Part shown: piece by piece, positions 681 through 15,012 of the stretch | How the letters are laid out: each line of letters begins with the position of its first letter | Position numbering within the stretch: the stretch's first letter is position 1 | DNA from: a virus | Lineage: Duplodnaviria; Caudoviricetes | DNA length: 64,000 bases | Reading direction: 5' to 3' (one strand) | Virus record (IMG/VR): IMGVR_UViG_3300035675_000001 | Position numbers and translations under genes: made by a program | The notes under the pieces: generated by a model | The model's database searches: none | The model's input: the letters and a program-made list of their open reading frames with translations, nothing else | Told to the model about the DNA's origin: nothing

Positions 681-681
681 A

Positions 682-3060: not shown

Positions 3061-3061
3061 C

Positions 3062-3137
3062 TGGAGCCTCCGGCTGGAATTGCACCAGCCACGTCCTGTT
3101 TACGAAACAGGCGCACCGCTGTCTGTGCTTCGGAGGC
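3062..3137 (-). tRNA. tRNA-Thr(CGT)
   Basis: Loop TT-CGT-AA; T-loop TGCAATT; A8. Confidence 0.9.
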
Positions 3138-3140
3138 AAA

Positions 3141-3215
3141 TGGTGGGAACGGCTGGTGCTGCCCCAGCGACCTTGAGTTTGTAGGACTCCTGCTCTACTG
3201 CTGAGCTACGCTCCC
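3141..3215 (-). tRNA. tRNA-Val(TAC)
   Basis: Loop CC-TAC-AA (C33); T-loop GGCAGCA. Confidence 0.9.
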
Positions 3216-3235
3216 GAAATCGGTTCTAAAAAGGC

Positions 3236-3964
3236 ATGAGTGAATTGTTTCGAGCACGGGTCGAGAAGTTTTTCCTGGAGTATGTCCTCCACGACAGCCC
3301 GCACAGCCGCAATCCGTTTGTCACGACGCACTGCCAACGCTACGTCCACTCCATGCTGTTCGCCGAGGCCGAGCTGAAAGAGGCCAAGGTGATCCTGGAA
3401 GTGGGCGCACCGGGCGCTTTCACCGAGGGCCTGCGGTCCATGCTGCCGGACCTGGTGATCGAAAACTCAAGCGCCGATCTCCGCACCGTCTTTACGGACA
3501 AGCGAGACTACTACGACTTCATCCTGAACATGGAGGTCATCGAGCACATGAAAGACCTGGACGTGCCGGAGGACTGGTTCCATCGGGATGCCTACGTCGG
3601 CGACGGCTTGAAAAATTTTGTAAACACTTGCTACCAGTGCTTGAAACCTGGCGGAAAGATGTTCTTGACGACCCCCAATCTCAGTTCCATCGGAACTCTT
3701 TGGAGGGTAATGAACTGTGGAAACCCATTTTCCTACGAGCTGCACATCCGCGAACTTTCAGTCAGTGATCTCTGGAAGGCGCTCACCGATGCCGGATTCA
3801 AGATCGACCGCTATACAACCATGCGTTGTTACGAGCAAAACCAGGTTCCACCGGACAAAGAGGCCCGAATCATGGGCTTCTTGCGCGAGATGAATCTGCC
3901 CACGGACAACCGCGATGAAGTCCAGTTCGTCTTGGCGTCCAAGCCTGTAGTTAAACCGCAATGA
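3236..3964 (+). CDS. Class I SAM-dependent methyltransferase
   Basis: ILEVGAPG motif I, MEVIEHM, LKPGGKMFLTTPN. Confidence 0.85.
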   Translation: MSELFRARVEKFFLEYVLHDSPHSRNPFVTTHCQRYVHSMLFAEAELKEAKVILEVGAPGAFTEGLRSMLPDLVIENSSADLRTVFTDKRDYYDFILNMEVIEHMKDLDVPEDWFHRDAYVGDGLKNFVNTCYQCLKPGGKMFLTTPNLSSIGTLWRVMNCGNPFSYELHIRELSVSDLWKALTDAGFKIDRYTTMRCYEQNQVPPDKEARIMGFLREMNLPTDNRDEVQFVLASKPVVKPQ

Positions 3965-4101
3965 CGACCTGGCTACTCATAGCGGTAGTTGCCGGACTGG
4001 CTTTCGCTGCCGGATGGTGGTGGAGGGGTCGCCGGAAACGCAGACAAATTCGGGTCGAGTTCGACATCGGCCCAGTAACATTGAAACAAAACTATGGTTA
4101 A
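3961..4101 (+). CDS. Small membrane protein (46 aa)
   Basis: MTTWLLIAVVAGLAFAAGWWWRGRRKRR...; ATGA overlap with upstream stop; GTAGTTA upstream. Confidence 0.5.
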   Translation: MTTWLLIAVVAGLAFAAGWWWRGRRKRRQIRVEFDIGPVTLKQNYG

Positions 4102-4630
4102 GATCACAACCGAACAACAAGTCCGTTTGCACGCGGCCTTCCTGACGGCAGCGGGTTCTCCCGCTCCGATTGAGGGAACGCCGGAATGGAGTGCCGCTCC
4201 TGCGGGAGTGGTCAACCTCATCGTGGACCCTGATGGCCGCGCAGCCCTTTGCCAGAGCGTAGCTGCTGGCACCGCCCAGGTGTCCGTCTCGGCTGACGCC
4301 GACCTTGGCACCGGGGTCCGAACAATCACCGGCACCATCGGGATCGAAGTCAGCGAAGCCTCTGCCGAAGCAGTGGAGATCACCGCCGATACGCCTGAGT
4401 TCAAGACCGTGACGCTTACCGTCACCGTTGAAATGCTCCCGGACGGCACGGCCAAGGTCACCGGCCACGGCAACCCCGACACGCTGTATCACGTCGAAGC
4501 CGCCGATGATGTCGCTGGCCCGTATGCTGAGATCGGGACCACCCTGTCGGATTCGACCGGCGTCGCTATCTTCATCGACCCGGATGCCGCTTCGCACACC
4601 ACTCGGTTTTATCGTCTTCGTTGGCCCTAA
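4094..4630 (+). CDS. Ig-like protein with Verrucomicrobia-type C-terminal domain
   Basis: Beta-rich N-terminal half; ends YHVEAADDVAGPY...FIDPDAASHTTRFYRLRWP. Confidence 0.65.
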   Translation: MVKITTEQQVRLHAAFLTAAGSPAPIEGTPEWSAAPAGVVNLIVDPDGRAALCQSVAAGTAQVSVSADADLGTGVRTITGTIGIEVSEASAEAVEITADTPEFKTVTLTVTVEMLPDGTAKVTGHGNPDTLYHVEAADDVAGPYAEIGTTLSDSTGVAIFIDPDAASHTTRFYRLRWP

Positions 4631-4701
4631 AGGCTGACGTTGTTGGTGGTCAGTCCAGTCGTTGACGGCCCGGAGCTGTTCTCCGGGCCGTTTCTTTGCA
4701 A

Positions 4702-4833
4702 TGGTGGGGACGATAATCCTTCAAGTTCGGCCCTATTCAGGCAAGGATTTTCGGAGGTTTATTTGAGACGGGATTTGAACCCGCGACCTCCCGCTTTTCA
4801 GGCGGGCGCTCTACCAGGCTGAGCTACGTCCCC
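4702..4833 (-). tRNA. tRNA-Phe(GAA) with a 55-nt insert between the T arm and the acceptor 3' strand
   Basis: 5' GGGGACG pairs with distal CGTCCCC-A-CCA; normal D arm; CCCGC-CTGAAAA-GCGGG; T-loop TTCAAAT; insert at 4713-4767. Confidence 0.8.
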
Positions 4834-4853
4834 ATAAATCTGTTCTACGCAAT

Positions 4854-5585
4854 ATGCTGACAATCGGAATCTTGAACTGCAAACGGCAGAATAACGTCGT
4901 GGCCCTGGTCAACCGTTATTCGGCCATGCCCATCGTCTCTCGCGTCACCGTGTGGAGCAGTCCGCCCGGCGACTTCCGCGTGAGCGACAACCCCAAACTC
5001 CTGACCGCGACCTGCGCCCCGGACTGGGGCATGTATGCCCGGTTCCAGTCGGTCCTCAACGCGCCCACGGAGTGGGTCATGACGGTCGATGACGACCTGT
5101 TCATCCCGGAGGAGTCGATCAAGGTCATGCTCGACGCCCGGATGAAGGACAAGGACAAGAGGATCAGCGGCATGTTCGGCAGACGGCCTTCCCAAACCCA
5201 GGGCTTTGCCGTGTTCAAAGACCTGGTGGACGAGGACTGCGAAATCGTCGTGGCCCGCGTCATGGTGTTTCACGTCAGCCTGATCGCCCGCTTCTTCGAT
5301 GTCGTGCGCGACCCGCGCTGGGAGGAGCTTTACGCCAAAGGCCGGGCCAATGGCTGGACAAAGACCACCAACATCGAGGACATCATCATGAGCTACACCG
5401 CGATGCGCGACACCGGCAGGCTCAACCAGATTCACAAGGTGCCCCACCAGGAGTTCGACGCGCCGGAGCCGATCTGGAAGATGCCGAACTTCTTCCCGTA
5501 TCGCCAAGCGGGCCTGACGTTCACCCAGCAGTTTTTCAACAACTGGTCCCACAGCGATCAGCCGACCGGCTGGACCGGCTGTTAA
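4854..5585 (+). CDS. GT-A fold glycosyltransferase (GT64/EXTL-like)
   Basis: VMTVDDDLFI DxD motif; NIEDIIMS resembles the EXTL NCEDI motif. Confidence 0.65.
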   Translation: MLTIGILNCKRQNNVVALVNRYSAMPIVSRVTVWSSPPGDFRVSDNPKLLTATCAPDWGMYARFQSVLNAPTEWVMTVDDDLFIPEESIKVMLDARMKDKDKRISGMFGRRPSQTQGFAVFKDLVDEDCEIVVARVMVFHVSLIARFFDVVRDPRWEELYAKGRANGWTKTTNIEDIIMSYTAMRDTGRLNQIHKVPHQEFDAPEPIWKMPNFFPYRQAGLTFTQQFFNNWSHSDQPTGWTGC

Positions 5586-5586
5586 A

Positions 5587-5661
5587 TGGTGCTCGCGGTT
5601 GGAATCCCACCAACGGCCTCAGCCTTCGCAGGGCTGCGCTCTATAACTGAGCTACGCGAGC
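5587..5661 (-). tRNA. tRNA-Arg(GCG)
   Basis: Loop CT-GCG-AA; T-loop TGGGATT. Confidence 0.9.
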
Positions 5662-5665
5662 AAAA

Positions 5666-5741
5666 TGGTGCCCCAAACTGGAATCTCACCAGTGGCCTTC
5701 GCCTTCGGAGGGCGACGCTCTATAGACTGAGCTACTGGGGC
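5666..5741 (-). tRNA. tRNA-Arg(CCG)
   Basis: Loop CT-CCG-AA; T-loop TGAGATT. Confidence 0.9.
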
Positions 5742-5742
5742 A

Positions 5743-5821
5743 TGGCGTTCCTGGCGGGACTCGCACCCGCTAGAGATTCGGCTTGAAAGGCCGACCGCTG
5801 GACGACTTTGCGCTCAGGAAC
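5743..5821 (-). tRNA. tRNA-Glu(TTC)
   Basis: Loop CT-TTC-AA; G73; T-loop TGCGAGT; A8. Confidence 0.88.
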
Positions 5822-5826
5822 AAAAA

Positions 5827-5903
5827 TGGTATCCCCGGTGGGATTCGCACCCACGATCTTCTGGTTGAGAACCAGGCGTGTTGGGCTGCTACACTACGGG
5901 GAC
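5827..5903 (-). tRNA. tRNA-Glu(CTC)
   Basis: Loop TT-CTC-AA; T-loop TGCGAAT. Confidence 0.9.
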
Positions 5904-5907
5904 AATC

Positions 5908-5977
5908 CACGGACAAGGAGAGCGACGTGGGAGGTTTCTCATTAGTGGTAAGATAACCCACATCAATTCGGCCCGTG
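5908..5977 (-). ncRNA. Minimal Y RNA-like RNA (Ro60-binding stem)
   Basis: CACGGGCCGA...GTGGGTTATCT...CCCAC...CCTTGTCCGTG; bulged-C helix and GUUAUCU as in Y RNAs. Confidence 0.7.
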
Positions 5978-5981
5978 AAAG

Positions 5982-6056
5982 TGGTCCCTGGGATCGGTAA
6001 CGCACCGATGTCTCCGGTTTTTCAGACCGGCGCTAATCTATCTCAGCTACCCAGGG
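5982..6056 (-). tRNA. tRNA-Phe(GAA), uninterrupted copy
   Basis: Loop CT-GAA-AA; T-loop TGCGTTA. Confidence 0.9.
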
Positions 6057-6057
6057 T

Positions 6058-6243
6058 TCAAGGCTCCAGCGTTTCCGCGAGCAGGAGGGCTGCTGCGAGA
6101 CGACGCGCCTCCCTGCGCGTCAGATGATGATAGACGGTCTCGCCTGCGGATGAGGACAAACTGACCTTGATGAAATTGGATCGTCGGGTCTTGGAAACCT
6201 CCACCCGATACTGCTTCGCTTTGCTGACAAGACGGTAGCTCAC
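6058..6243 (-). CDS. Hypothetical protein
   Basis: 61-aa ORF; ATGA overlap with upstream gene. Confidence 0.5.
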   Translation of the reverse strand: MSYRLVSKAKQYRVEVSKTRRSNFIKVSLSSSAGETVYHHLTRREARRLAAALLLAETLEP

Positions 6244-6647
6244 TCAGGGAACCGGGGGAGTTTGTGATCGTCAGCCTGCTTCTCGTAATACTCCAGCTTG
6301 GACCGAATATCGTTCAGCACTTTGGCCAGCTCGGCAGCAAAGCTCACTGGCTCCGGTTCCACTTTGGCGTGAATGATGACCTTCAAATGATCGGCTGCTT
6401 TCTTCTGCGCCCGCATCTCGATGCGGGTTGCGCCCGCCGCCCAGGCGAAGAACAGCGAGTTCAAAAACGCCAGGATGTAATGTGCCGAGCTATGGGACGC
6501 CGCGACCTCGGTCAGACGATAGATGGTGATGACCACGATGCCCAGGAACACCAGCACCCAAATTCTCCGCTTCACGATACGGTAGAGCGTCGTCCACACG
6601 TAGAGGACGTAGAGCTGCAACAGGATCGCTATGACCAAAAATGCCAT
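6240..6647 (-). CDS. Membrane protein (3 TM segments plus basic/coiled tail)
   Basis: Three hydrophobic stretches; GTATTTA upstream. Confidence 0.6.
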   Translation of the reverse strand: MAFLVIAILLQLYVLYVWTTLYRIVKRRIWVLVFLGIVVITIYRLTEVAASHSSAHYILAFLNSLFFAWAAGATRIEMRAQKKAADHLKVIIHAKVEPEPVSFAAELAKVLNDIRSKLEYYEKQADDHKLPRFPE

Positions 6648-6673
6648 GCCGGTCTAAATACGCAGGCTGAAAT

Positions 6674-6750
6674 TGGTAGCCGCAGTTGGAGTTGCACCAA
6701 CGACCTGACGCTTATCAAGCGCCTGCTCTGACTAGCTGAGCTACGCGGCC
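6674..6750 (-). tRNA. tRNA-Ile(GAT)
   Basis: Loop TT-GAT-AA; T-loop TGCAACT. Confidence 0.9.
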
Positions 6751-6753
6751 ACA

Positions 6754-6841
6754 TGGCGGCTGGTGCAGGATTTCCACCTGCGCGGGTTTTACCCCGTCCA
6801 CGGTTTTCGAGACCGGAACCTTGGTGCTCGGTCAACCAGCC
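6754..6841 (-). tRNA. tRNA-Ser(CGA)
   Basis: Long variable arm, G73; loop CT-CGA-AA; T-loop TGGAAAT. Confidence 0.9.
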
Positions 6842-6851
6842 GGAAAGATTT

Positions 6852-6975
6852 GACGGACAAGGGGAACCAAGGAGTTTTTGCTACCTCCGAGGTCACGGCA
6901 CATGGAGCCGTGAGTGAGAGTCGAACTCACATCGCTTCATTTACAGTGAAGATAATCCTCAGTAATCGGCCCGTC
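6852..6975 (-). ncRNA. YrlA-type Y RNA enclosing a circularly permuted tRNA-Tyr(GTA)-like domain
   Basis: GACGGGCCGA/TTGTCCGTC Ro stem; ACTGAGGA/TCCTTGGT; CTTCA-CTGTAAA-TGAAG; GTGAG-TTCGACT-CTCAC; TCACGGC-TCCATGT-GCCGTGA. Confidence 0.8.
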
Positions 6976-6979
6976 AAAA

Positions 6980-7067
6980 TGGCGGATGGTGCAGGATTTC
7001 CACCTGCGCTGGTGTTACCCAGTCCTCCGGCTTCCAACCGGGAACCTTGGTGCTCGGTCAACCATCC
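6980..7067 (-). tRNA. tRNA-Ser(GGA)
   Basis: Long variable arm, G73; loop TT-GGA-AG; T-loop TGGAAAT. Confidence 0.9.
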
Positions 7068-7084
7068 AAAAAGTTTACAAAAAG

Positions 7085-7173
7085 TGGCGGAGGGCACAGG
7101 AGTCCAACCTGTTCAGGTTTCACCCTGGCGTCGGTTTTCAAGACCGCCCCGTTCGACGTTCCGGCAGCCCTCC
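7085..7173 (-). tRNA. tRNA-Ser(TGA)
   Basis: Long variable arm, G73; loop CT-TGA-AA; T-loop TTGGACT. Confidence 0.9.
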
Positions 7174-7194
7174 GCAAGAAGGTAGTTAGCGCAG

Positions 7195-7641
7195 ATGCCG
7201 GAAAAGACATTAGCCTATCACCTGCTGCAAAAGTTTGAAGCAGACCGGGAGAAGATCGAGCGATACTCGTCCATAGCGGAACACTGCCCGCTCCCCGCGT
7301 TTATCGCTGGATCAGACGGCATTTCCATCCTCTACATCAACCCGGCCTACCGGGAATTGACCGGACGCAACATCGAAGAACTCCAGGACGGCAAGTGGGT
7401 TACGTCGGTTATTCACCCGGACGATCAGGCGTCAGTTATTGATGCCTGGAAATTGTTTACAAAAACTGTCCAGCGACAGGCTCATCATCACCGCTATGTT
7501 CACGTCGATGGCCGGGTCACGGATGCGGTGACTGTAGTGGACCGGGTTGAAGGCAACGGCTACGTTGGCTTCATCATTCCCCACTGCGGCAAAGAGGACT
7601 GCCCGATGCAACAGTTGGTCCCACTTGGTCACCACACGTAA
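7195..7641 (+). CDS. Stand-alone PAS-domain protein
   Basis: ILYINPAYRELTGRNIEELQDGKWVTSVIHPDD is a typical PAS_3/PAS_4 signature; no output domain. Confidence 0.8.
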   Translation: MPEKTLAYHLLQKFEADREKIERYSSIAEHCPLPAFIAGSDGISILYINPAYRELTGRNIEELQDGKWVTSVIHPDDQASVIDAWKLFTKTVQRQAHHHRYVHVDGRVTDAVTVVDRVEGNGYVGFIIPHCGKEDCPMQQLVPLGHHT

Positions 7642-7642
7642 A

Positions 7643-7718
7643 TGGTGCTCGCGGCAGGAATCTCACCTGCGACCAGCCGCTTAGGAAACGACCGCTCTGA
7701 TAACTGAGCTACGCGAGC
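7643..7718 (-). tRNA. tRNA-Arg(CCT)
   Basis: Loop TT-CCT-AA; T-loop TGAGATT. Confidence 0.9.
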
Positions 7719-7719
7719 G

Positions 7720-7796
7720 TGGCACCCCTGCCAGGATTCCCACCTGGATCAGACCGCTTAGAAGACGGTCGCTCTAATACATTGAGCTACAGGGGC
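7720..7796 (-). tRNA. tRNA-Arg(TCT)
   Basis: Loop CT-TCT-AA; T-loop TGGGAAT. Confidence 0.9.
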
Positions 7797-7808
7797 TTAC
7801 AACTAAAA

Positions 7809-7884
7809 TGGCTGCCAAGACTGGGGACGATCCAGTAACCGCCCGGTTAACAGCCGGGTGCTCTACCAGTTGAGCTACTTGGCA
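7809..7884 (-). tRNA. tRNA-Asn(GTT)
   Basis: T1-A72, G73; loop CT-GTT-AA; T-loop ATCGTCC. Confidence 0.9.
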
Positions 7885-7890
7885 ATGAAA

Positions 7891-8106
7891 TCAGGCCGGA
7901 ATCGGCGTCGAGCCAGGGATGAACGGGGCTTTGGTGCCGCCGCCTCCACTGGGGTTGGCCGGATTCGGAATGAGCGTGGACTCGGCAACGTAATCGGCAG
8001 CGGTCCCGCCGCCGCCATCAGCCTTGGCCGAGTTTGGAACGAGGGTCGCGCCTGGAGGCGTCGTATCGCCCGTCCGAACCGGCGCTGGAATGATCGTCAT
8101 GTCCAT
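7891..8106 (-). CDS. Small Pro/Gly-rich protein with internal duplication
   Basis: TLVPNSAKADGGGGT / TLIPNPANPSGGGGT; GTAGTTA 6 nt upstream. Confidence 0.55.
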   Translation of the reverse strand: MDMTIIPAPVRTGDTTPPGATLVPNSAKADGGGGTAADYVAESTLIPNPANPSGGGGTKAPFIPGSTPIPA

Positions 8107-8122
8107 CGCTCTTAACTACAAA

Positions 8123-8199
8123 TGGTCAGCGCGGAGGGCTTCGATCCCTCGGCCTCCTGGCCCCGAACCAGGCGCTCTGCCAAGCTGAGCTACGCGCTG
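8123..8199 (-). tRNA. tRNA-Pro(CGG)
   Basis: C1-G72, A73, G37; T-loop ATCGAAG. Confidence 0.9.
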
Positions 8200-8206
8200 A
8201 TGAAAA

Positions 8207-8282
8207 TGGTCGGGCTGGCCGGGTATGATCCGGCGACCTTCTGGCCCCCAGCCAGACGCGCTGCCAACTGCGCTACAGCCCG
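8207..8282 (-). tRNA. tRNA-Pro(GGG)
   Basis: C1-G72; loop CT-GGG-GG; T-loop ATCATAC. Confidence 0.9.
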
Positions 8283-8286
8283 AAAA

Positions 8287-8361
8287 TGGTCAGGGCGGGG
8301 AGTTTCGCAATCCCGGCCTCCTGGTCCCAAGCCAGGCGCTCTGCTTCTGAGCTACGCCCTG
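8287..8361 (-). tRNA. tRNA-Pro(TGG)
   Basis: C1-G72; loop CT-TGG-GA; T-loop TGCGAAA with a T53.C61 mismatch. Confidence 0.85.
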
Positions 8362-8387
8362 ATCGCCGTGTAGTTACGGTGAAAGTT

Positions 8388-10454
8388 ATGGAAATCACAT
8401 ACGTTCCAGACCCGTCCAAAGCGGATGGCAAACCGGTTGTTGCCGAGGTTGTTGCCCTGGGCACGACTGTTGTTCAATTCGCCACGCCACAACAGGTTTA
8501 CGTGACGGGCGGGACGCTCGCCACGAACGTCCAGTTCACCGGCTCAATTTCGACCGACATCGGCAACGTCAAAATCGAAGACCAGAACGGAAACTACGCC
8601 GAAATGCCAGCGGCGAGTGACGCCAAGACTGGAGCCAACAAAGCCCTACTCGTTCAGCACGTTGACGAAACCGGAACTCCGCTCCGCCAATCGACGCAGG
8701 TCAGCATCATGCAGAACCAGGGGACGCTCGCAACAAGCGCCCTCCAGGCTACCGGAATCGCACTGGCCTCGGTCATCCTGAACAACCAGGGCACCCAGGC
8801 CACAGCAGCTCTCCAGCAAGCAGGCAACGGCGCTCTGAGCGTAATTGTAAACAACCAGGGCACCCAGGCCACGGTCGCAGCTCAGGATAGCCAGACAGCG
8901 ATCCTGGCCGTGATGATGAACAATCAGGGCACGCTGACTCCGGCAACGGACTCGACGACCCTGACGGCGGTCATGAACAACCAGGGGACGCAGGCGACCT
9001 CGGCCAAGCAAGATGCCACGAACAACCTGCTGACGGTCATCATGAACGCGCAGGGGACGCAGGCGACCAGCGAGGTCGCTGAAAGCATTACGTTCTCGGC
9101 CATCCTGAACAACCAAGGAACCCTGGCGACCAGCGCCCAACAGACCGCCGCACAGGCGACGCTGACCACGGTCATGAACAGCCAGGGGACACAGAGCACG
9201 GCGCTGCTCTCGCCCATCCTGAATGCTTTCGGAACTCTCGCTACGGCGGCAGCTCAAGCCAACGGAAATACAGCTCTCCAAAATCTGCTGACGCCCATCC
9301 TGAACGCCCAGGGCACGCAGAGCACTGCCCTGCTGTTGCCCATCCTGAACAACCAGGGAACTCAGGCGACCAGCGCCAACCAGGAGACCCAAATCACGGC
9401 GCTGAACACGCTGATCGACACCCTGCGGTCGGTCGATACGGTTGGGACCAACCTCGAAGTGACGCTGTTCAATGGCGTTTACGCAGTCGGACCCAGTGTG
9501 GCTGCCAACGTCAACGGCTACACCCGGCACACCGTCCAGCACGTCATCATGAACGGCAGCGTGGCCGCGCACATCGAGACCAGCCTTGACGGCACGACCT
9601 GGAATACCGAAGCGGTCGATACGGCTTCAAATCTTCAACGGCTCACGGGAGCCTGCAAATACATCCGCGCCGTTTACATGGGCGGAGCGGGCACGCTCAG
9701 CACCTTCCTGAACTCGGCAGCCGGAAACGGAGGCGGAGCGCCCAACGGCGCAGGCCAAGCCGAGCTTTGCATCGTCGGCACCGTTGCCAGCACCCTGGGG
9801 TCAGCCGTGGCTTTCGAGACGGGAGGGGCCAACAGCTTAGGCTTCCACTACGAGCCGCCTGCCGGTTCGACTTCGATTTTTGAAGGTTCGTGGGACGGCA
9901 GCCATTGGGTTGACATAACGCTGCGCCAAATGGGAGCGCACGGCTACACAAGCATCACCGATGACACCCACCAGGATTGGGTCGGTTCATGCGCGACATG
10001 GCGCTATTTTCGCCTGCGAATCACCCAGGGCGGCACAGGTGTTGGAGTTATCAGAGGCAGGTTCAGCTATGCTCCCAGCACGATTGAAGGCGTCGAAAAC
10101 CAGGCGATGCCCCACCGCATCGGCGCATCATCGCAATCAAAGAGCTTTTCCTTTACTGGCGTCACAAGCAACGGGACCATTTGGGCACCCACTACATCTT
10201 ACCACCGGCTCTACATCACGGACTTGTTCTTCACGGTCGATGCTACGACTACTGTCATCTTCTCCGATGGCAGCAACGCAGAAGGCAAACTCGTCTTCAA
10301 GGGCAAATTCAAACCCGCGTCTGGCGAAAGCTCCTATGTCCCGGCTGCTTTTTCACTCCCGCACGTATTCACCGGACCCAACCGGGCGCTGATGTTCACG
10401 CAAAGCGGAGGCGCAGAAGTTGACGGCGTGGTTCACGGCTACGAAGCAGAATAA
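8388..10454 (+). CDS. Repeat-rich fibre-like (probable virion) protein
   Basis: Many (N/S/A)QGT(Q/L)AT repeats followed by beta-rich C-terminal domains; start moved out of tRNA-Pro (in-frame GTG at 8379 also possible). Confidence 0.7.
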   Translation: MEITYVPDPSKADGKPVVAEVVALGTTVVQFATPQQVYVTGGTLATNVQFTGSISTDIGNVKIEDQNGNYAEMPAASDAKTGANKALLVQHVDETGTPLRQSTQVSIMQNQGTLATSALQATGIALASVILNNQGTQATAALQQAGNGALSVIVNNQGTQATVAAQDSQTAILAVMMNNQGTLTPATDSTTLTAVMNNQGTQATSAKQDATNNLLTVIMNAQGTQATSEVAESITFSAILNNQGTLATSAQQTAAQATLTTVMNSQGTQSTALLSPILNAFGTLATAAAQANGNTALQNLLTPILNAQGTQSTALLLPILNNQGTQATSANQETQITALNTLIDTLRSVDTVGTNLEVTLFNGVYAVGPSVAANVNGYTRHTVQHVIMNGSVAAHIETSLDGTTWNTEAVDTASNLQRLTGACKYIRAVYMGGAGTLSTFLNSAAGNGGGAPNGAGQAELCIVGTVASTLGSAVAFETGGANSLGFHYEPPAGSTSIFEGSWDGSHWVDITLRQMGAHGYTSITDDTHQDWVGSCATWRYFRLRITQGGTGVGVIRGRFSYAPSTIEGVENQAMPHRIGASSQSKSFSFTGVTSNGTIWAPTTSYHRLYITDLFFTVDATTTVIFSDGSNAEGKLVFKGKFKPASGESSYVPAAFSLPHVFTGPNRALMFTQSGGAEVDGVVHGYEAE

Positions 10455-10458
10455 TTTT

Positions 10459-12417
10459 ATGAGCCTACTCGACATCAATCAGACTCAGGTCGCAGCAGTC
10501 ATGGCCCCGGTTATCAATAACCAGGGGACACAGGCGACGGAGCAGACGCTCATCACCGTCATGAACAGTCAGGGCACGCAGGCAACTGCTGCCCTCCAGG
10601 CCAACAGCAACGCTCTCCTGACCACCATCATGAACAACCAGGGGACGCTCGCCGATTACGACGACGCGACTCTCCAGGCGGTCATGAACAACCAGGGGAC
10701 GTTGGCCACGAGCAGCAAACAGGACGCTCAAACTGCCATCCTGGGTGCGATGCTGAACAACCAGGGAACACTGACTCCTGTAACTGGTGGAGCCACAGAA
10801 ATCACTTTGGTCCGACTTGCTAATGACCAAGGCACGTTGGCCACGAGTGCGAATCAAGCCGCGAGCAATGCCTTGTTAACGGTCGTAATGAATGACCAGG
10901 GCACATTGGCGACCAGCTCCTATCAGGCGGTCCAGCTCGAACTCCTGGGCTTGATTCTGAACAGCCAGGGAACTCAAAACACGTCCAGCCTGGCGACCAG
11001 CGCCAACCAGGCGCAGGCCAACAGCTCCCTCACAGTCATTCAGAACAACCAAGGAACGCAGGCCACGGCATCGAACCAAAGCACTGAAATCAGCCTGCTC
11101 AGCCTGATCCTGAACGCCCAGGGGACTCAAGGCGAAGGGCTGAACGCACTCTCACAACAGCAAGCGGACACGGTAACGACTTACGGACCAACCGGAACTC
11201 TAGCCTCAGCGCGAGTGGCCACGCTGATGACGACTGATCCGAACTCGGTAAGCGTTGACGCATTTGGTCGGCTGCGCGTCAGCAACGCGGACTACCGGTT
11301 TGACGGCCAGCTTGTTTACCAGGTCAACGCTGACCTATGGGACTCCGCCTGGAACAGCACTGGCACGGTGACCTATGACCGCAAGAACCGAATGGCTCAG
11401 CTCACTTGCGCGGCTAACGGCACCAGCGTCATGCAGAGCCACTATCACGTCCCCTACACGCCCGGACGCGGCCAGCTCGCTTTCGTCACGTTTGCCGGAA
11501 CGGCTGCGCCAGCCGAAAACACCTACCACCGGGTAGGCTACTTCGACGAGACAAACGGTATTTTCCTGGAGCGCACCAGCGCGGGAGCAAGCTTGACACT
11601 CAAAAGCTCAACCGATGCGGGGTCCGAGACAGTTTTACAGGCAAACTGGAACATCGACAAGATGGACGGCACCGGCCCCAGCGGGTTAACGCTCGACCTG
11701 ACCAAATCTCAAATCCTGTTTATCCAGCTCCAGGCGCTCTACATCGGTCGTGTAATCGTCGGCTTCGACATCGACGGCGTTGCCTGGCCGGTCCATCAGT
11801 TCACGCACGCCAACAAGTTCGTCAAGCCCTACATTGGCAACGCGAGCTTGCCGGTGCGCTACGAAGTGGGTTCAACGGGCGTCAATACCGCCCAGCTTAA
11901 TCCCGTCTGCGCCTCCGTCATCAGCGAAGGCGGCGGGCCGCTGATCGACATTCCGGCCCGCACATTCACCGCAGGCAACGGTGCAACACCCATCAGCGTA
12001 AACGCCCGGAGACCCGTGCTTTCAATCAGGCCCAAAGCGCAGTTTAACCAAAACCAGAACGAAGGCATTGTTCTGCCGTCTGACCTGTCGATCCGAAATT
12101 CGACTGCGGACATCTACGTTGAAGTCATCCGCAACGCCGTGCTCACGGGAGCATCCTGGACAAGCGTGGATGCGGTCAACAGCGTTTGTGAATATGATGT
12201 CGCGGCAACTGCCGTCAGCGGAGGCCAAACGGTTTTCTCAGGCTACAGCAACGTCTCGTCAGGGCTATCAACAAGCATCAAGGACAACCTGCTCAGCCGC
12301 CTGACCATCGTCTATTCAGAACTTCTTCAAACAGCGGACACGCTCACCATCGTCTGCACATCTCTCGGCGGTGCTGCTTCAACTGTCGCCGCGCTTAACT
12401 GGAAAGAAATTCGTTGA
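10459..12417 (+). CDS. Repeat-rich fibre-like protein, paralog of the upstream gene in its N-terminal half
   Basis: NNQGT(Q/L)AT repeats, then VSVDAFGRLRVS and a beta-rich C-terminal domain of a kind seen in phage virion proteins. Confidence 0.7.
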   Translation: MSLLDINQTQVAAVMAPVINNQGTQATEQTLITVMNSQGTQATAALQANSNALLTTIMNNQGTLADYDDATLQAVMNNQGTLATSSKQDAQTAILGAMLNNQGTLTPVTGGATEITLVRLANDQGTLATSANQAASNALLTVVMNDQGTLATSSYQAVQLELLGLILNSQGTQNTSSLATSANQAQANSSLTVIQNNQGTQATASNQSTEISLLSLILNAQGTQGEGLNALSQQQADTVTTYGPTGTLASARVATLMTTDPNSVSVDAFGRLRVSNADYRFDGQLVYQVNADLWDSAWNSTGTVTYDRKNRMAQLTCAANGTSVMQSHYHVPYTPGRGQLAFVTFAGTAAPAENTYHRVGYFDETNGIFLERTSAGASLTLKSSTDAGSETVLQANWNIDKMDGTGPSGLTLDLTKSQILFIQLQALYIGRVIVGFDIDGVAWPVHQFTHANKFVKPYIGNASLPVRYEVGSTGVNTAQLNPVCASVISEGGGPLIDIPARTFTAGNGATPISVNARRPVLSIRPKAQFNQNQNEGIVLPSDLSIRNSTADIYVEVIRNAVLTGASWTSVDAVNSVCEYDVAATAVSGGQTVFSGYSNVSSGLSTSIKDNLLSRLTIVYSELLQTADTLTIVCTSLGGAASTVAALNWKEIR

Positions 12418-12502
12418 CGTAAGCCAGTCACGCCGGTCGCTGGCATAACCAACGACCGGCATGGCAGGGGCGTGTTGCTGCTCTGCTTCATCAGCAGGAC
12501 AA

Positions 12503-12579
12503 TGGCGGGCACGACCGGACTCGCACCGGCTGACTTCGCCGTGACAGGGCGCTGATTCGACTCCTTCATCTCCGTGCCC
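12503..12579 (-). tRNA. tRNA-Asp(GTC)
   Basis: G73; loop CT-GTC-AC; T-loop TGCGAGT; G8. Confidence 0.9.
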
Positions 12580-12585
12580 GTAAAA

Positions 12586-12673
12586 TGGTGGGAGGCGCTG
12601 GTTACGCTCCAGCCGCCACTACCCGTGATGTTGAAGGCACCGGTTTTACAGACCGGCCACGGGACCGCCTCCC
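12586..12673 (-). tRNA. tRNA-Tyr(GTA)-like RNA lacking a D arm
   Basis: Acceptor GGGAGGC/GCCTCCC, A-CCA; CCGGT-CTGTAAA-ACCGG; only 10 nt between acceptor and anticodon stems; T-loop AGCGTAA. Confidence 0.75.
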
Positions 12674-12675
12674 AT

Positions 12676-12764
12676 TTACCCAGGTCCAAACCACTGTGGC
12701 TCTGACCCCGTTACTTCCGCTGTGGCGCGTAGGGGCCTTCCTCCACTCTTTCTGGACTGGGCAA
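12676..12764 (-). ncRNA. Candidate rod-like structured RNA
   Basis: TTGCCCAG/CTGGGTAA, TCCAGA/TTTGGA, GTGG/CCAC, GGCCCC/GGGGTC nested stems. Confidence 0.5.
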
Positions 12765-12775
12765 GTAGCTAAAGC

Positions 12776-13297
12776 ATGAAATTGATACCGGTTCTCATGG
12801 CGTGTTTGGTTCTTTCAGGCTGTATGATCGTCAACGTGAAAGAACGGGGCTTTCCGCCCGAACACCAAATTGTAAACTTTGATCGGGTGACCAGCGACCT
12901 CTACCGGGGCGCTCAACCGACCATCGCCAGCCTCGATTACCTCAAGTCGTTGGGGATCAAAAGCGTCGTCTGCCTGCGAGAACCTTCTGACATTCTGCCG
13001 GGCGAACCAATATCGGTCTCGGCGCTCGGCCTGCGCTTCGAGAACCTGCCGATGGACGGCGTGACGGCTCCCAGCGAAGCGGACATAGACAAGATGCTGG
13101 ACGTGATCGACGCGCTGCCCAAGCCGGTCTTCATCCACTGCCAGTTCGGCTGCGACCGCACCGGGACCGTGATCGCCTGCTGGCGCATCAAGCATGGCTG
13201 GGACAACGACGCAGCCTACCGGGAAGCCAAGCAATACGGCATCTCGCCGCTGCTCCCGGCGCTTCATCATCTCATCAAGACCTACAAGAAAAAGTAA
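12776..13297 (+). CDS. Cys-based protein tyrosine/dual-specificity phosphatase, lipoprotein
   Basis: HCQFGCDRTG (CX5R), LYRGAQP; lipobox LVLSGC. Confidence 0.85.
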   Translation: MKLIPVLMACLVLSGCMIVNVKERGFPPEHQIVNFDRVTSDLYRGAQPTIASLDYLKSLGIKSVVCLREPSDILPGEPISVSALGLRFENLPMDGVTAPSEADIDKMLDVIDALPKPVFIHCQFGCDRTGTVIACWRIKHGWDNDAAYREAKQYGISPLLPALHHLIKTYKKK

Positions 13298-13385
13298 CGG
13301 GCAAGGGTTGGCGTCGGAGATGCCTGGTTGCCCAGGCGGTTTCCATACCAATGATAGAAGATAACCGACATCCATTCGGCCCGTT
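13296..13385 (-). ncRNA. Y RNA-like RNA (Ro60-binding stem)
   Basis: AACGGGCCGA...GTCGGTTATCT...CCGAC...CCTTGCCCGTT; inner hairpins TTCTAT/ATGGAA and GCCTGG-GCAA-CCAGGC. Confidence 0.75.
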
Positions 13386-13387
13386 GA

Positions 13388-13490
13388 ATCACCACCGGTA
13401 TTGCAACCCGCACCGCACATCAGCACTTCTTCGGCCTCGACGGCTGTGCTTTCGCTGGTCATGGGAGTCGAACCCATTGTTCACGGTGAT
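13388..13490 (-). ncRNA. tRNA-mimic RNA with a 5'-proximal canonical T arm (YrlA-like order)
   Basis: ATCACC/GGTGAT closing stem; ATGGG-TTCGACT-CCCAT; further hairpins; no anticodon arm or CCA end. Confidence 0.6.
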
Positions 13491-13498
13491 GAAAATTA

Positions 13499-13571
13499 TG
13501 GCACGGAGTGTGGGTGCTGCCCCCACCAGGACTGGTTTTGGAGACCGGTCTGCACGGCTGGTGCCCTCCGT
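13499..13571 (-). tRNA. tRNA-Trp(CCA), atypical compact fold
   Basis: G73-CCA; loop CT-CCA-AA; D arm GCAC-CAGCC-GTGC; extended anticodon stem; T-loop GGCAGCA. Confidence 0.8.
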
Positions 13572-13572
13572 A

Positions 13573-13666
13573 TTCAGCACCCCCTTTTACGCTGACGGTC
13601 AGAGTCGCGTTCACAGGCTCGCACGACCGGCCTGCTGCCGTCCCACGGATAAGCCAAGGTGCCGAA
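13573..13666 (-). ncRNA. Candidate pseudoknotted RNA
   Basis: TTCGGCACC/GGTGCTGAA; GACGG/CCGTC; CAGGC/GCCTG whose loop GGTCGTG can pair with downstream CGCGACT. Confidence 0.5.
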
Positions 13667-13668
13667 AT

Positions 13669-13744
13669 TGGTGGAAGCGCCGGGACTCGCACCCGGAACA
13701 TCGACGATGCCATCGTCGCGCTCTACTGATTGAGCTACGCCCCC
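13669..13744 (-). tRNA. tRNA-Ala(GGC)
   Basis: G3.T70, A32-T38; T-loop TGCGAGT. Confidence 0.9.
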
Positions 13745-13751
13745 GAAAGAG

Positions 13752-13843
13752 CCGGGCCGAGTTTGCTTCGAGGTTGCAACCCCGTTGCCTTATCGTGCGG
13801 GATGTGCGCCCGCCCTCCGTTCATGAGACGGAGTGCTCCCCGG
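13752..13843 (-). ncRNA. Permuted tRNA-like RNA with a CAT anticodon-like arm
   Basis: CCGGG/CCCGG closure; CTCCGT-CTCATGA-ACGGAG; GCGGG-CGCACAT-CCCGC; no CCA end. Confidence 0.5.
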
Positions 13844-13854
13844 ATACCGACGTT

Positions 13855-13928
13855 TGGTGGAATCGGAGGGAGTCCCACCCTCATCTCCCGCGTGCGAGGC
13901 GGGCGCTCTAGTGCTGAGCTACGACCCC
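13855..13928 (-). tRNA. tRNA-Ala(CGC)
   Basis: G3.T70; loop CT-CGC-AC; T-loop TGGGACT. Confidence 0.9.
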
Positions 13929-13933
13929 AAAAA

Positions 13934-14797
13934 ATGAAACCGCGCTGCGTCTCGATCTTTCCGACCAACCACTGCAACGCGCACTGCTACTACTGCGCCT
14001 ACCAGACCAGTTACGCCTTCGCGGATGCGACCACGATGTGCCGCAAGACGGACCAGCTCTCACGCGAGCTGCTGGCCAAGGCGCTGGACGAGGCGAAAAT
14101 CTGCAACAACATCGAAATCTCTGGCGGCGGCGAACCCCTTTGCCATCCCGACTTCGCCTGGTTTGCCAGGGAGGTCGTGGCCCGTGGGATCGGGGCCAAG
14201 CTCATTACCAACGGCGTGCTGCTCACCGGCGAGCTGCTGGAAGTCTCCGCCCAGCTCAGCTACGTGGAGTTCTCGATCAATTACTACGACCACCTGAGCT
14301 TCGAGGCCAACCGCAGTATGCCTCGTGGCTGGTTTGAAACCGTGACGGCCAACGTCAGAAATCTGATGAGCAGCCCGCACTCCTGCGTGATCGGGGCCAA
14401 GGTCGTGCTCACAGGCCGGAACTACCAGACGCTCCCGCAGATCAAGCAATACCTGGGGTCGCTGGGAATCCATCGCCTGGTCGTGACGCCCAGCTACAGC
14501 CGAGACGCGAGCGACGTGCCCCCGCCTGCGGTGTTTGGGATGGACCGGATCGCGCACGTCAAACCGAAGTGCGCTTACTGCCAGCGCCGAATCGACCATC
14601 CGGTCATCGGAGCTGACGGGAAATACTACGCCTGCTGCTACTTCACCTACATGCCGTCCATGCAGATCGGCGACCTGGCCACGCAGAGCTTGTCAAACGT
14701 GTTAGACAACGGACCCGTGTTCGACCAGGGCCTCTGCTGCCGGGTCGAGCAGGTGATCGCCGACTACCGGCGCGGGGTCGTCACTGCGTTTCCGTAA
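13934..14797 (+). CDS. Radical SAM protein with C-terminal Cys-rich (twitch/SPASM-like) region
   Basis: CNAHCYYC, SGGGEPL, TNG, YACCY; start moved out of tRNA-Ala. Confidence 0.85.
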   Translation: MKPRCVSIFPTNHCNAHCYYCAYQTSYAFADATTMCRKTDQLSRELLAKALDEAKICNNIEISGGGEPLCHPDFAWFAREVVARGIGAKLITNGVLLTGELLEVSAQLSYVEFSINYYDHLSFEANRSMPRGWFETVTANVRNLMSSPHSCVIGAKVVLTGRNYQTLPQIKQYLGSLGIHRLVVTPSYSRDASDVPPPAVFGMDRIAHVKPKCAYCQRRIDHPVIGADGKYYACCYFTYMPSMQIGDLATQSLSNVLDNGPVFDQGLCCRVEQVIADYRRGVVTAFP

Positions 14798-14799
14798 AA

Positions 14800-14928
14800 G
14801 GAGCCATGCGGCGGGATTTGAACCCGCGCTCTGGATACTCGTGTCACCTTTCTCCAGGATTTGGTGCGACGCGCCACTTGGCCTCCCCGAAGTGTGACAC
14901 CCCCAGGTCGGTTGCAGTCGCCACAGGC
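14800..14928 (-). ncRNA. tRNA/tmRNA-like RNA (129 nt) with canonical T arm
   Basis: GCCTGTG/CGCATGGC acceptor-like stem with one bulge; CGAC then CTGG..GTGTCAC/GTGACAC..CCAG; GCGGG-TTCAAAT-CCCGC; ends TCC. Confidence 0.6.
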
Positions 14929-14934
14929 ATAAAT

Positions 14935-15010
14935 TGGTGGAAGTGATGGGACTCGCACCCACAACCTCAAGCTTGCAAAGCTCGCGCTCTACTAATTGAG
15001 CTACACCCCC
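14935..15010 (-). tRNA. tRNA-Ala(TGC)
   Basis: G3.T70; loop TT-TGC-AA; T-loop TGCGAGT. Confidence 0.9.
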
Positions 15011-15012
15011 AA

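What the first reader, a model, noticed from the sequence alone, without database searches (positions are those of the whole stretch)
4713..13385. Family of four Y-RNA modules with compensatory changes and no Ro60 gene in the window
Seen: the motif A(C)GGGCCGA-N5/6-upper stem-TTATC ... upper stem'-linker-CCTTGYCC occurs at 4713-4767, 5908-5977, 6852-6975 and 13296-13385. The upper stem covaries (GTGGG/CCCAC, GTCGG/CCGAC, ACTGAGGA/TCCTTGGT). In the three free RNAs TTATC is followed by a 5-6 bp hairpin with a 7-nt loop (GTA, ACT or TTG at the centre). No TROVE/Ro60 or RtcB ORF is recognisable here. Established: in Salmonella, rsr-yrlBA-rtcBA is induced by damaged tRNA fragments through RtcR, and Deinococcus Rsr-Y RNA tethers PNPase. 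Inference: the phage supplies a panel of Y RNAs to titrate or redirect host (or its own) Ro60/PNPase/RtcB RNA repair and decay machinery.
Basis: partly seen in the sequence, partly recalled or inferred. Interest (0 to 1): 0.82.

Follow-up and report, generated by a model that had tools for sequence, protein, structure and literature searches.

The report
Phage Y RNAs, Ro60 gene nearby
A wetland jumbo phage carries a family of small Y-type RNAs scattered through its tRNA genes, one of them built into a tRNA-Phe, and it does have its own Ro60 partner protein gene, lying only 6.4 kb beyond the window's left edge, so this is an enlarged version of a known phage Ro60/Y-RNA system, not a set of orphan RNAs.

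Summary
GGGCCGA-N9-16-TTATC occurs four times, all on the minus strand within the tRNA array, against 0.07 expected. Three copies (5907-5978, 6851-6976, 13295-13386) fold as closed stems with covarying upper helices. The fourth is a strand-swapped copy inside a tRNA-Phe (4702-4833).

A covariance model built only from RNAs next to Ro60 genes of other phages finds exactly these three free modules in the window. Across 52 distinct homologues, all 14 base pairs show two-sided changes.

"No Ro60 in the window" is true but is an edge effect. Contigs overlapping the window at 99.99-100% identity carry a 567-aa TROVE+vWA Ro60 gene 6.4 kb left of position 1, on the same strand. A tmRNA and two more Y RNAs lie just upstream of it. 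Three related phage lineages also combine Ro60 with four to six such RNAs. No RtcB, Rnl2 or PNPase gene was found in five Ro60-carrying phage records searched, two of them from those lineages.

These are therefore most likely partners of the phage's own Ro60, not decoys for host Ro60. Phage Ro60/Y RNAs are already known (mycobacteriophages, Thermus phage phiLo), and this scan has reported tRNA-ordered Y RNAs on other DNA. The new points are the number and dispersal of copies and the insertion site in tRNA-Phe.

The parts
5907..5978 (-). Y RNA module M2, short type: Ro-type basal helix ACGGGC[C]GA / UUGUCCGU, upper stem GUGGG/CCCAC, UUAUC, 5-bp hairpin with a 7-nt loop. It lies 3 nt after the CCA end of tRNA-Phe (5982) and 3 nt before tRNA-Glu (5903).
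   Evidence: Fold -28 kcal/mol, z -4.6. R1 scores 36.7 bits, E 1e-5. The best Rfam match is the nematode stem-bulge (Y-homologue) model RF01656 at 28.5 bits, below its 38-bit cut-off.
6851..6976 (-). Y RNA module M3, YrlA-like long type. In order: Ro helix, upper stem ACUGAGGA/UCCUUGGU, UUAUC, anticodon-like arm (loop CUGUAAA), canonical T arm GUGAG-UUCGACU-CUCAC, 7-bp acceptor-like hairpin closed by the loop UCCAUGU, and a degenerate D-like segment.
   Evidence: Fold z -3.2. R1 scores 31.6 bits. A partial Rfam tRNA hit of 23.4 bits lies at 6906-6970. The G003 homologue (L087 226-358) shows compensatory changes in the upper stem, T arm and acceptor hairpin and keeps the same UCCAUGU loop.
13295..13386 (-). 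Y RNA module M4: Ro helix ACGGGC[C]GA / UUGCCCGU, upper stem GUCGG/CCGAC, UUAUC and two inner hairpins. A U-rich tail follows. It converges on a phosphatase gene (12776-13297, + strand).
   Evidence: Fold z -3.3. R1 scores 33.6 bits. A homologue with the same synteny (after a tRNA-Trp, convergent to the phosphatase gene) is present in IMG/VR contigs G001 and G002.
4702..4833 (-). M1: tRNA-Phe(GAA) chimera. Acceptor 5' strand GGGGACG at 4833-4827; D, anticodon and canonical T arms; a 55-nt insert (about 4713-4767) holding a closed Ro-type hairpin (UCCUUGCC-UGAAUA-GGGCCGA...AGGAUUAUC); then acceptor 3' strand CGUCCCC at 4712-4706, discriminator A and CCA at 4705-4702.
   Evidence: Sequence and fold. 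The Rfam tRNA hit covers only model positions 7-64. It is conserved at 84% identity over 139 nt in G003, with paired changes in the anticodon stem and an unchanged Ro hairpin.
5982..6056 (-). Ordinary tRNA-Phe(GAA) immediately upstream of M2. Its 3' processing would define the 5' end of M2.
   Evidence: ARAGORN and Rfam tRNA at 52.1 bits.
5827..5903 (-). tRNA-Glu immediately downstream of M2. RNase P cleavage at its 5' end would define the 3' end of M2.
   Evidence: ARAGORN and Rfam tRNA at 59.6 bits.
6980..7067 (-). tRNA-Ser immediately upstream of M3.
   Evidence: ARAGORN.
6757..6841 (-). Class-II tRNA-like gene immediately downstream of M3.
   Evidence: Rfam tRNA at 36.7 bits.

Best explanation
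The four elements belong to a family of at least six Y-type RNAs that serve the phage's own Ro60 protein.

Shown: each carries the conserved Ro-type handle. This is a basal helix with a GGGCCGA 5' strand, a bulged C and a UUGYCC 3' strand, then a variable internal loop, a covarying upper stem and a nearly invariant GGUUAUC. The same handle sits directly upstream of Ro60 genes in dozens of phage contigs. This phage's Ro60 gene lies on the same strand, 11-20 kb downstream of the four window copies, with two further copies and a tmRNA beside it.

Inferred: the RNAs are co-transcribed with the tRNA array. Ordinary tRNA processing frees them, since only 3-nt spacers separate M2 from its neighbouring tRNAs. 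Ro60 docks on the handle. The variable distal part is an anticodon-like arm in M2 and M4, a nearly whole permuted tRNA in M3, and a complete CCA-ended tRNA-Phe in M1. That part presents a tRNA-like surface to host tRNA- or RNA-handling proteins. By analogy with Deinococcus RYPER and Thermus phage phiLo, these most plausibly include host PNPase. The RNAs would thus tether and gate Ro60 for RNA surveillance or decay during infection of a host by a phage that brings about 40 tRNAs of its own.
For: Motif enrichment is 4 hits against 0.07 expected. The folds are stable. Model R1 was built from 18 Ro60-adjacent RNAs of other phages only. Run without filters over window plus L031, it returns only M2, M4, M3 and the Ro60-adjacent Y6. 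Over about 1 Mb it gives 68 hits, every one on the Ro60 strand; in the Ro60-centred loci nearly all lie within 1 kb upstream of the gene, while the window's and G001's copies are dispersed. In the alignment, 93.2% of cells are paired against 65.7% in shuffles. The covariation score is 0.80 against 0.28 (0 of 500 shuffles) and 0.07-0.21 when partners are slid. All 14 pairs change on both sides. The Ro60 gene is linked to the window: L028 matches window 1-13964 at 99.99% and L031 matches window 1-3813 at 100%, and both carry the TROVE gene. Its PDB matches are human RO60 (9e-112), Xenopus Ro (1e-108) and Deinococcus Rsr (1e-103). Y6 next to Ro60 hits Rfam YrlA at 42.2 bits, E 6e-7. Relatives G001/G002, G003 and L033 have Ro60 plus six (G001/G002), five (G003) and four or five (L033) handle RNAs. 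M4-to-M3 spacing is 6410 nt here and 6413 nt in G001. M1 and M3 are conserved with compensatory changes in G003. Published precedent: YrlA near Ro60 in bacteria and phages (PMC4201824); phiLo Ro60 binds two upstream Yrl RNAs and host PNPase (PMC12135203).
Against: No binding or expression data exist; no RNA run holds the stretch. The window copies fail every Rfam gathering score: no YrlA or Y_RNA hit, sbRNA 28.5 against a cut-off of 38, Deinococcus Y RNA 14.7 against 80. The four window copies are 11-20 kb from Ro60, not adjacent to it. The alignment used for pair counts was fitted to the model, which favours pairing. The effector step (PNPase or another tRNA-binding protein) rests on analogy only. 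None of the five phage records searched, including the nearly complete G003, encodes PNPase/RNase PH, and the host is unknown.
Confidence: 0.78

Rival explanations
1. One reading: the RNAs are orphan Y RNAs that the phage makes to titrate or redirect host Ro60, PNPase or RtcB machinery.
For: The window holds no Ro60. The handle resembles bacterial and metazoan Ro-binding helices closely enough that a host Ro60 might also bind it. phiLo Yrl RNAs do engage host PNPase (PMC12135203).
Against: The phage encodes its own Ro60 6.4 kb beyond the window edge, on the same strand, with two more family members beside it. Every relative with these RNAs also has Ro60. No RtcB or Rnl2 was found in the five phage records searched. 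The host, and whether it has Ro60, are unknown.
Confidence: 0.08
2. The handle marks permuted or interrupted tRNA precursors. M3 (closed acceptor with an internal CCA) and M1 (55-nt insert) would be matured into working tRNAs, with Ro60 acting as a chaperone or processing platform, not as a stable partner.
For: M3 has an anticodon-like arm, V loop, canonical T arm and a 7-bp acceptor hairpin whose loop contains CCA. M1 has a full cloverleaf and an encoded CCA. M. smegmatis YrlA is cut by RNase P and receives CCA (10.1101/312249). Both strand orders exist in related phages.
Against: The anticodon-like loop of M3 changes from GUA to UGA between close relatives while the rest is kept. That does not fit a decoding identity. 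M2 and M4 have no tRNA body. No RNA ligase (RtcB, Rnl2) was found in the five phage records searched. An ordinary tRNA-Phe(GAA) is already present. No bacterial mechanism is known for removing an insert at the T/acceptor junction.
Confidence: 0.07
3. The modules are spacer structures or decayed tRNA relics within the tRNA array, such as processing signals or terminators, with no link to Ro60.
For: They lie between tRNAs with 3-10 nt spacers. A U-rich tract follows M4. No promoter signal rises above shuffles.
Against: The same sequence and structure sits next to Ro60 in many unrelated phage contigs and nowhere else in them. The 5' strand matches the known Ro60 contact motif GGUCCGA / GNCGAA (PMC4201824). 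Covariation is strong.
Confidence: 0.05

Closest known systems
YrlA / YrlB Y RNAs with Rsr (Ro60) of bacteria and mycobacteriophages (Chen et al. 2014, PMC4201824; Rfam RF02553; structure paper 10.1101/312249)
   Same: There is a basal stem with a GNCGAA-type Ro motif. One long form carries a T arm, a closed acceptor-like hairpin and D-like elements, i.e. a circularly permuted tRNA mimic (M3, Y6). Short forms lack the tRNA body (M2, M4). The genes are encoded with Ro60. Model R1 also hits two RNAs just upstream of Ro60 in Mycobacterium phage Jessibeth14.
   Different: The window copies do not reach the Rfam YrlA score; only Y6 gives a partial hit of 42 bits against a cut-off of 69. There are at least six copies per genome rather than one or two. 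Four are dispersed in the tRNA array 11-20 kb from Ro60. M3 keeps an extra anticodon-like arm. M1 has the reverse strand order, with open CCA ends.
Thermus phage phiLo Ro60 with Yrl1 and Yrl2 (NAR 2025, PMC12135203)
   Same: A phage-encoded Ro60 has phage-encoded Y-like RNAs upstream of the gene. No PNPase gene was found in the phage records searched, so a host effector is expected.
   Different: phiLo has two RNAs adjacent to the gene, with no tRNA array context and no tRNA chimera. Binding is shown experimentally there and not here.
Metazoan Y RNAs and nematode stem-bulge RNAs (Rfam RF01656; Kowalski and Krude 2015, PMC4726728)
   Same: The lower stem is GGNCCGA with a bulged C paired to CUUGNCC. 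An upper stem follows, then UUAUC at the start of the loop. M2 aligns end to end with the sbRNA model.
   Different: The score is below the family cut-off (28.5 against 38). The context is prokaryotic and viral. The UUAUC motif is linked to DNA replication activity in metazoa, and nothing suggests that role here. Homology versus convergence was not resolved.
tRNA-ordered Y RNAs noted earlier in this scan (e1-3458874 crAss-like phage, e1-3140236 cyanobacteria, e1-3785677 myxobacteria, e1-3669910 phage tRNA-Val)
   Same: A closed Ro-type hairpin is grafted into an otherwise tRNA-shaped RNA with open acceptor ends. I saw the same form in L046, L048 and G003.
   Different: In M1 the graft sits at the T-stem/acceptor junction (between positions 65 and 66). 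In the other cases it sits at the D/anticodon junction or in the anticodon arm. The tRNA body of M1 is a complete tRNA-Phe.

Membership tests
Y RNA (Ro60-associated small RNA) | The 5' and 3' ends pair into a stem that holds the conserved Ro-binding helix (GGNCCGA-type 5' strand, bulged C) | tested here: met
   M2, M3 and M4 meet it: folds, R1 alignments, covariation. M1 has the helix, but it is closed by a loop and the RNA ends lie elsewhere.
Y RNA (Ro60-associated small RNA) | Encoded in a genome that has Ro60/TROVE, typically near it | tested here: met
   A Ro60 of 567 aa (TROVE 162 bits, vWA_Ro60 178 bits) lies on contigs identical to the window, 6.4 kb left of position 1. The window copies are 11-20 kb away; Y5 and Y6 are adjacent.
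Y RNA (Ro60-associated small RNA) | Physically bound by Ro60 | not testable with these tools
   This needs EMSA or pull-down.
Y RNA (Ro60-associated small RNA) | Accumulates as a discrete small RNA | not testable with these tools
   No listed RNA run holds the stretch. Discreteness is inferred from the flanking tRNAs only.
Rfam YrlA (RF02553) | Score at or above the gathering threshold of 69 bits | tested here: not met
   There is no YrlA hit on M1-M4. Y6 outside the window gives 42.2 bits over model positions 23-85.
YrlA subfamily (tRNA-mimic Y RNA) | Distal domain with a T arm, a closed acceptor-like stem and a D arm | tested here: inconclusive
   M3 has a canonical T arm and a 7-bp closed acceptor hairpin, but only a degenerate D-like segment. 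Its G001 homologue has a full D arm. M2 and M4 lack the domain and are YrlB-like.
Rfam sbRNA RF01656, Y_RNA RF00019 and Deinococcus_Y_RNA RF01053 | Score at or above the gathering threshold | tested here: not met
   M2 scores 28.5 against 38 for RF01656 and 14.7 against 80 for RF01053. RF00019 is not reported.
   M2 scores 36.7, M4 33.6 and M3 31.6 bits, with E between 1e-5 and 1e-4. There is no other hit in the window at E<=1 with filters off.
tRNA (for M1) | Cloverleaf with a 7-bp acceptor stem, discriminator and CCA, and an anticodon loop | tested here: met
   GGGGACG pairs with CGUCCCC, followed by A-CCA, once the 55-nt insert is looped out. The anticodon is GAA and the T loop is UUCAAAU. 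The Rfam tRNA hit is 52.2 bits over positions 7-64. G003 shows paired changes in the anticodon stem.

The most novel reading that the evidence does not exclude
The Ro-type helix may be a portable Ro60 handle that these phages graft onto tRNA-shaped bodies in either strand order, including a complete CCA-ended tRNA-Phe. Phage Ro60 would then be tethered to genuine, possibly chargeable tRNAs. That could guard or monitor the phage's own unusual tRNA pool, or decoy host tRNA-targeting defences. It would also place the lower-stem-plus-UUAUC core, shared with animal Y and sbRNAs, as an ancient Ro60-linked module instead of a replication-specific one.
Probability: 0.15. Interest if true: 0.75.

Novelty: new variant of a known kind. 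Interest (0 to 1): 0.5.

Why it matters
Ro60/Y-RNA particles are well studied in animals because of autoimmunity, and in a few bacteria. Their role in phages is barely explored: one biochemical study exists, on phiLo. This phage and its relatives show that a single virus can carry five to seven different RNAs with one Ro60 handle, spread through a large tRNA array. The handle can be attached to tRNA bodies in several topologies. That gives a natural panel for asking what the distal module of a Y RNA recruits. It also allows a test of whether Ro60 is tied to phage tRNA biology. For the scan, the case is a reminder that "gene absent from the window" needs a check beyond the window edge.

Tried and rejected
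- Rfam at gathering and at permissive thresholds gave no YrlA or Y_RNA call on the four modules.
- An exact 49-mer of M3 was not found in IMG/VR.
- blastn of the region against cultured phages matched only tRNAs.
- No whole genome is held for the window.
- The first lookup of a window protein failed because of start-codon choice.
- Three of the five IMG/VR pattern hits (L001, L003, L005) were chance matches in coding sequence.
- The co-occurrence of GGGCCGA and CCTTGTCC at 33556-33615 is coding sequence, not a module.
- R1 found nothing near Ro60 in Sinorhizobium phage Phosso or Agrobacterium phage Atu_ph07. In G003 it found nothing at E<=0.1, although G003 has homologues that motif search and alignment do find. 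The model therefore misses long and permuted forms.
- Promoter and terminator scans were not above shuffles.
- RtcB, Rnl2 and RNase PH/PNPase were not found in the five phage records searched. A CCA-adding enzyme appeared in only one.
- The two large unannotated ORFs between M3 and M4 (8286-10454 and 10420-12417) have no Pfam hit and no similarity to Ro60.
Full report
**Setting.** The window is part of a tRNA-rich jumbo phage. Pfam finds a family A DNA polymerase (20663-24043, minus strand), an NAD-dependent DNA ligase (15974-18133, minus strand), a DnaB-type helicase, a helicase with a Helicase_C_2 domain and a baseplate J protein. ARAGORN and Rfam find 24 or more tRNA genes, all on the minus strand between 600 and 15430. 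No whole genome is held for the window.

**Checking the observation.** The composite pattern GGGCCGA-N9-16-TTATC occurs four times, all on the minus strand: 4712-4733, 5952-5974, 6951-6972 and 13360-13382. Shuffles give 0.07 on average, and none of 100 reaches four. The short motifs on their own are not enriched. A fifth co-occurrence at 33556-33615 is coding sequence without TTATC.

- M2, 5907-5978, -28.0 kcal/mol, z -4.6
- M3, 6851-6976, z -3.2
- M4, 13295-13386, z -3.3

Each has a basal stem ACGGGC/GYCCGU with a bulged C followed by G-U and A-U pairs. An asymmetric internal loop follows, then an upper stem that differs in every copy but stays paired, then UUAUC, then a 5-6 bp hairpin with a 7-nt loop.

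**The fourth copy.** The copy at 4713-4767 has the two handle strands in the reverse order, joined by the loop UGAAUA. It is a 55-nt insert in a tRNA-Phe(GAA). The 5' acceptor strand GGGGACG (4833-4827) finds its partner CGUCCCC, followed by A and CCA, only at 4712-4702, downstream of the insert. This explains why Rfam matched only tRNA model positions 7-64. An ordinary tRNA-Phe(GAA) lies at 5982-6056.

**Ro60 is present in this phage.** Exact-protein lookups with window genes returned public contigs of the same phage.
- L028 (ENA, 28 kb) matches window 1-13964 at 99.99% and extends 6.8 kb further left.
- L031 (JGI wetland metagenome) matches window 1-3813 at 100% and extends 16 kb further left.

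Both carry a 567-aa gene on the strand of the tRNAs. Its start lies 6355 nt left of window position 1. My own Pfam run gives TROVE 162 bits and vWA_Ro60 178 bits. Against the PDB it matches human RO60 (9e-112), Xenopus Ro (1e-108) and Deinococcus Rsr (1e-103).

Just upstream of this gene lie several RNA genes and one small ORF:
- a tmRNA at 111.6 bits;
- two more handle RNAs: Y5 has GGCGGGUCGC...GGUUAUC...CCUUUAUCCGCC, and Y6 has GCGCGGGUCGAAUG...GGUUAUC, a T arm, a closed acceptor, a D arm and CCCUUACCCGUGC;
- an 81-aa ORF.

Y6 hits Rfam YrlA at 42.2 bits, E 6e-7, and folds as a textbook YrlA. So "no Ro60 in the window" is correct but is an edge effect. The four window copies lie 11-20 kb upstream of Ro60 on the same strand.

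**Relatives.** A degenerate pattern scan of IMG/VR found an M4 homologue in two contigs, G001 (108 kb) and G002 (199 kb). The synteny matches the window: the RNA follows a tRNA-Trp and converges on a phosphatase gene. Both contigs encode a 580-aa TROVE protein and six handle RNAs. The M4-to-M3 spacing is 6413 nt there and 6410 nt here.

A Ro60 alignment then retrieved 53 viral loci. The closest is G003 (238 kb, 96% complete, Ro60 71% identical). Across the whole G003 record the handle core occurs five times, all upstream of Ro60 on its strand, plus one chance hit in coding sequence. The five are homologues of M3, M1, Y5 and Y6, and one further closed, tRNA-ordered form.

The M1 chimera is 84% identical over 139 nt in G003. 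It shows paired changes in the anticodon stem and an unchanged Ro hairpin. The M3 homologue shows compensatory changes in the upper stem, T arm and acceptor hairpin and keeps the loop UCCAUGU. Its anticodon-like loop changes from CUGUAAA to CUUGAAA.

**Independent test of family membership.** I aligned 18 short RNAs found upstream of Ro60 genes in other phages, none from the window's phage. RNAalifold gave 14 pairs, 10 of them with compensatory changes. Model R1 was built from that alignment.

With filters off, over the window plus L031, R1 returns only four hits at E<=1:
- M2, 36.7 bits
- M4, 33.6 bits
- M3, 31.6 bits
- Y6, 25.3 bits

Over about 1 Mb of loci it gives 68 hits at E<=0.01. All are on the Ro60 strand. 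In the Ro60-centred loci nearly all lie within 1 kb upstream of the gene.

On the resulting alignment (52 distinct rows), 93.2% of cells are paired against 65.7% in shuffles. The covariation score is 0.80 against 0.28 (0 of 500 shuffles reach it) and 0.07-0.21 when partners are slid. All 14 pairs change on both sides; the pair next to the bulged C, for example, is C-G in 34 rows and U-A in 18. This alignment was fitted to the model, which favours pairing. The location and strand bias are independent of that.

R1 also hits two RNAs just upstream of Ro60 in Mycobacterium phage Jessibeth14. This ties the family to the phage Y RNAs described by Chen et al. 2014 (PMC4201824).

**Relation to known models.** No window copy reaches an Rfam gathering score. 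Scanned alone, M2 aligns best, end to end, with the nematode stem-bulge RNA model RF01656, at 28.5 bits against a cut-off of 38. That model's consensus reads CGGUCCGGA...UGGGUUAUC...CCCA...CUUGACCG. sbRNAs are the nematode homologues of Y RNAs. [quoted passage not shown] In 56 distinct phage modules found with a pattern descriptor, the motif is TTATC or TTACC, mostly preceded by GG or GA. I did not resolve whether this reflects common descent or convergence.

**Both strand orders occur.** Besides M1, closed handles inside tRNA-shaped RNAs with open acceptor ends occur in L046 (3505-3634), L048 and G003 (L087 362-492). There the handle sits between the D and anticodon arms. These are circular permutations of the M3/YrlA order. 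The literature already treats YrlA as a circularly permuted tRNA mimic, and reports that M. smegmatis YrlA is cut by RNase P and then receives CCA (10.1101/312249). Earlier notes of this scan report tRNA-ordered Y RNAs in a crAss-like phage, a giant virus, cyanobacteria and myxobacteria, and a Felix O1-type phage with four partner RNAs. This class has therefore been found before on other DNA. In the papers I searched, no description of the tRNA-ordered form turned up. The insertion site of M1, at the T-stem/acceptor junction, differs from the cases I saw.

**How it most likely works.**
- Shown: the handle, its covariation, its association with Ro60 genes, and linkage to Ro60 in this phage.
- Inferred: co-transcription with the tRNA array and release by RNase P and tRNA 3' processing. 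M2 is separated by 3 nt from the CCA end of tRNA-Phe and by 3 nt from tRNA-Glu. M3 is similarly flanked. A U-rich tract follows M4. No separate promoter signal rises above shuffles.
- Inferred from published work (PMC4201824, PMC12135203): Ro60 docks on the handle, and the distal module recruits a host protein, most plausibly PNPase or another tRNA-recognising enzyme. The RNAs would then act as tethers and gates for Ro60.

The five phage records searched encode no RtcB, Rnl2 or RNase PH/PNPase. Any effector would therefore be supplied by the host.

**Limits.** There are no expression data and no binding data. The host is unknown. Only the window plus 16 kb to its left could be examined for this phage, so the family may be larger. 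R1 misses long, divergent and permuted copies (Y5, M1 and the G003 homologues).

**Verdict.** The structural observation is confirmed. The Y RNA reading is supported. The orphan-decoy reading is not supported. This is a new variant of a known kind: a phage Ro60/Y-RNA system with an unusually large and dispersed RNA set and a tRNA-Phe chimera.

Noticed in passing
window 606-15428, minus strand: Most ordinary phage tRNAs have non-canonical T loops, for example UGCGAAU, UGGGAUU, AUCGUCC and AUCAUAC. A 5-bp stem plus a TTCRANN loop occurs on the minus strand only at 4784 (the M1 tRNA-Phe), 6930 (M3), 13477 and 14827.
   Followed up: partly
window 13389-13492, minus strand: Directly upstream of M4 lies a roughly 105-nt element closed by a 9-bp stem (UCAUCACCG/CGGUGGUGA). 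It has a canonical T arm (AUGGG-UUCGACU-CCCAU) and an internal GAGGCCGAAG, which resembles the Ro motif of the mycobacteriophage RNAs. It may be another tRNA-mimic or Y-like RNA. Its fold z-score is only -1.2.
   Followed up: partly
window 14800-14930, minus strand: An uncalled structured element carries a canonical T arm (GCGGG-UUCAAAU-CCCGC). Rfam gives a weak hit to permuted tmRNA just upstream, at 14893-14962 (23.5 bits).
   Followed up: no
window 13500-13590, minus strand: A tRNA-Trp-like sequence (loop CUCCAAA, 3' end GCCA) is called by neither ARAGORN nor Rfam. The homologous position in G001 holds a normal tRNA-Trp.
   Followed up: no
L031 8150-8500 (about 4.3-4.7 kb left of window position 1, minus strand of the window): Four tandem tRNA-Leu-like genes have anticodon-like loops UAA, UAG, CAG and CAA, CCA ends, T loops UGCAAGU and an odd extended D region. 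ARAGORN does not call them.
   Followed up: no
L031 8963-9388: A phage-encoded one-piece tmRNA (Rfam 111.6 bits) lies immediately upstream of Y5, Y6 and Ro60.
   Followed up: no
L094 (Mycobacterium phage Jessibeth14) 2590-2662 and 2866-2935: Two R1 hits just upstream of the Ro-like gene overlap the annotated hypothetical CDSs 231 and 232. Those small CDSs may be Y RNA genes annotated as proteins.
   Followed up: no
L033 9971-11582: The Ro60 homologue in this IMG/VR contig loses its frame after about 160 residues. This may be a frameshift or an assembly error. Four or five handle RNAs lie upstream of it.
   Followed up: no
window 12776-13297 (+ strand), and G001 and G002: A dual-specificity/tyrosine phosphatase-like gene (PF22741, PF22785) converges on M4. 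The arrangement is conserved in G001 and G002.
   Followed up: no
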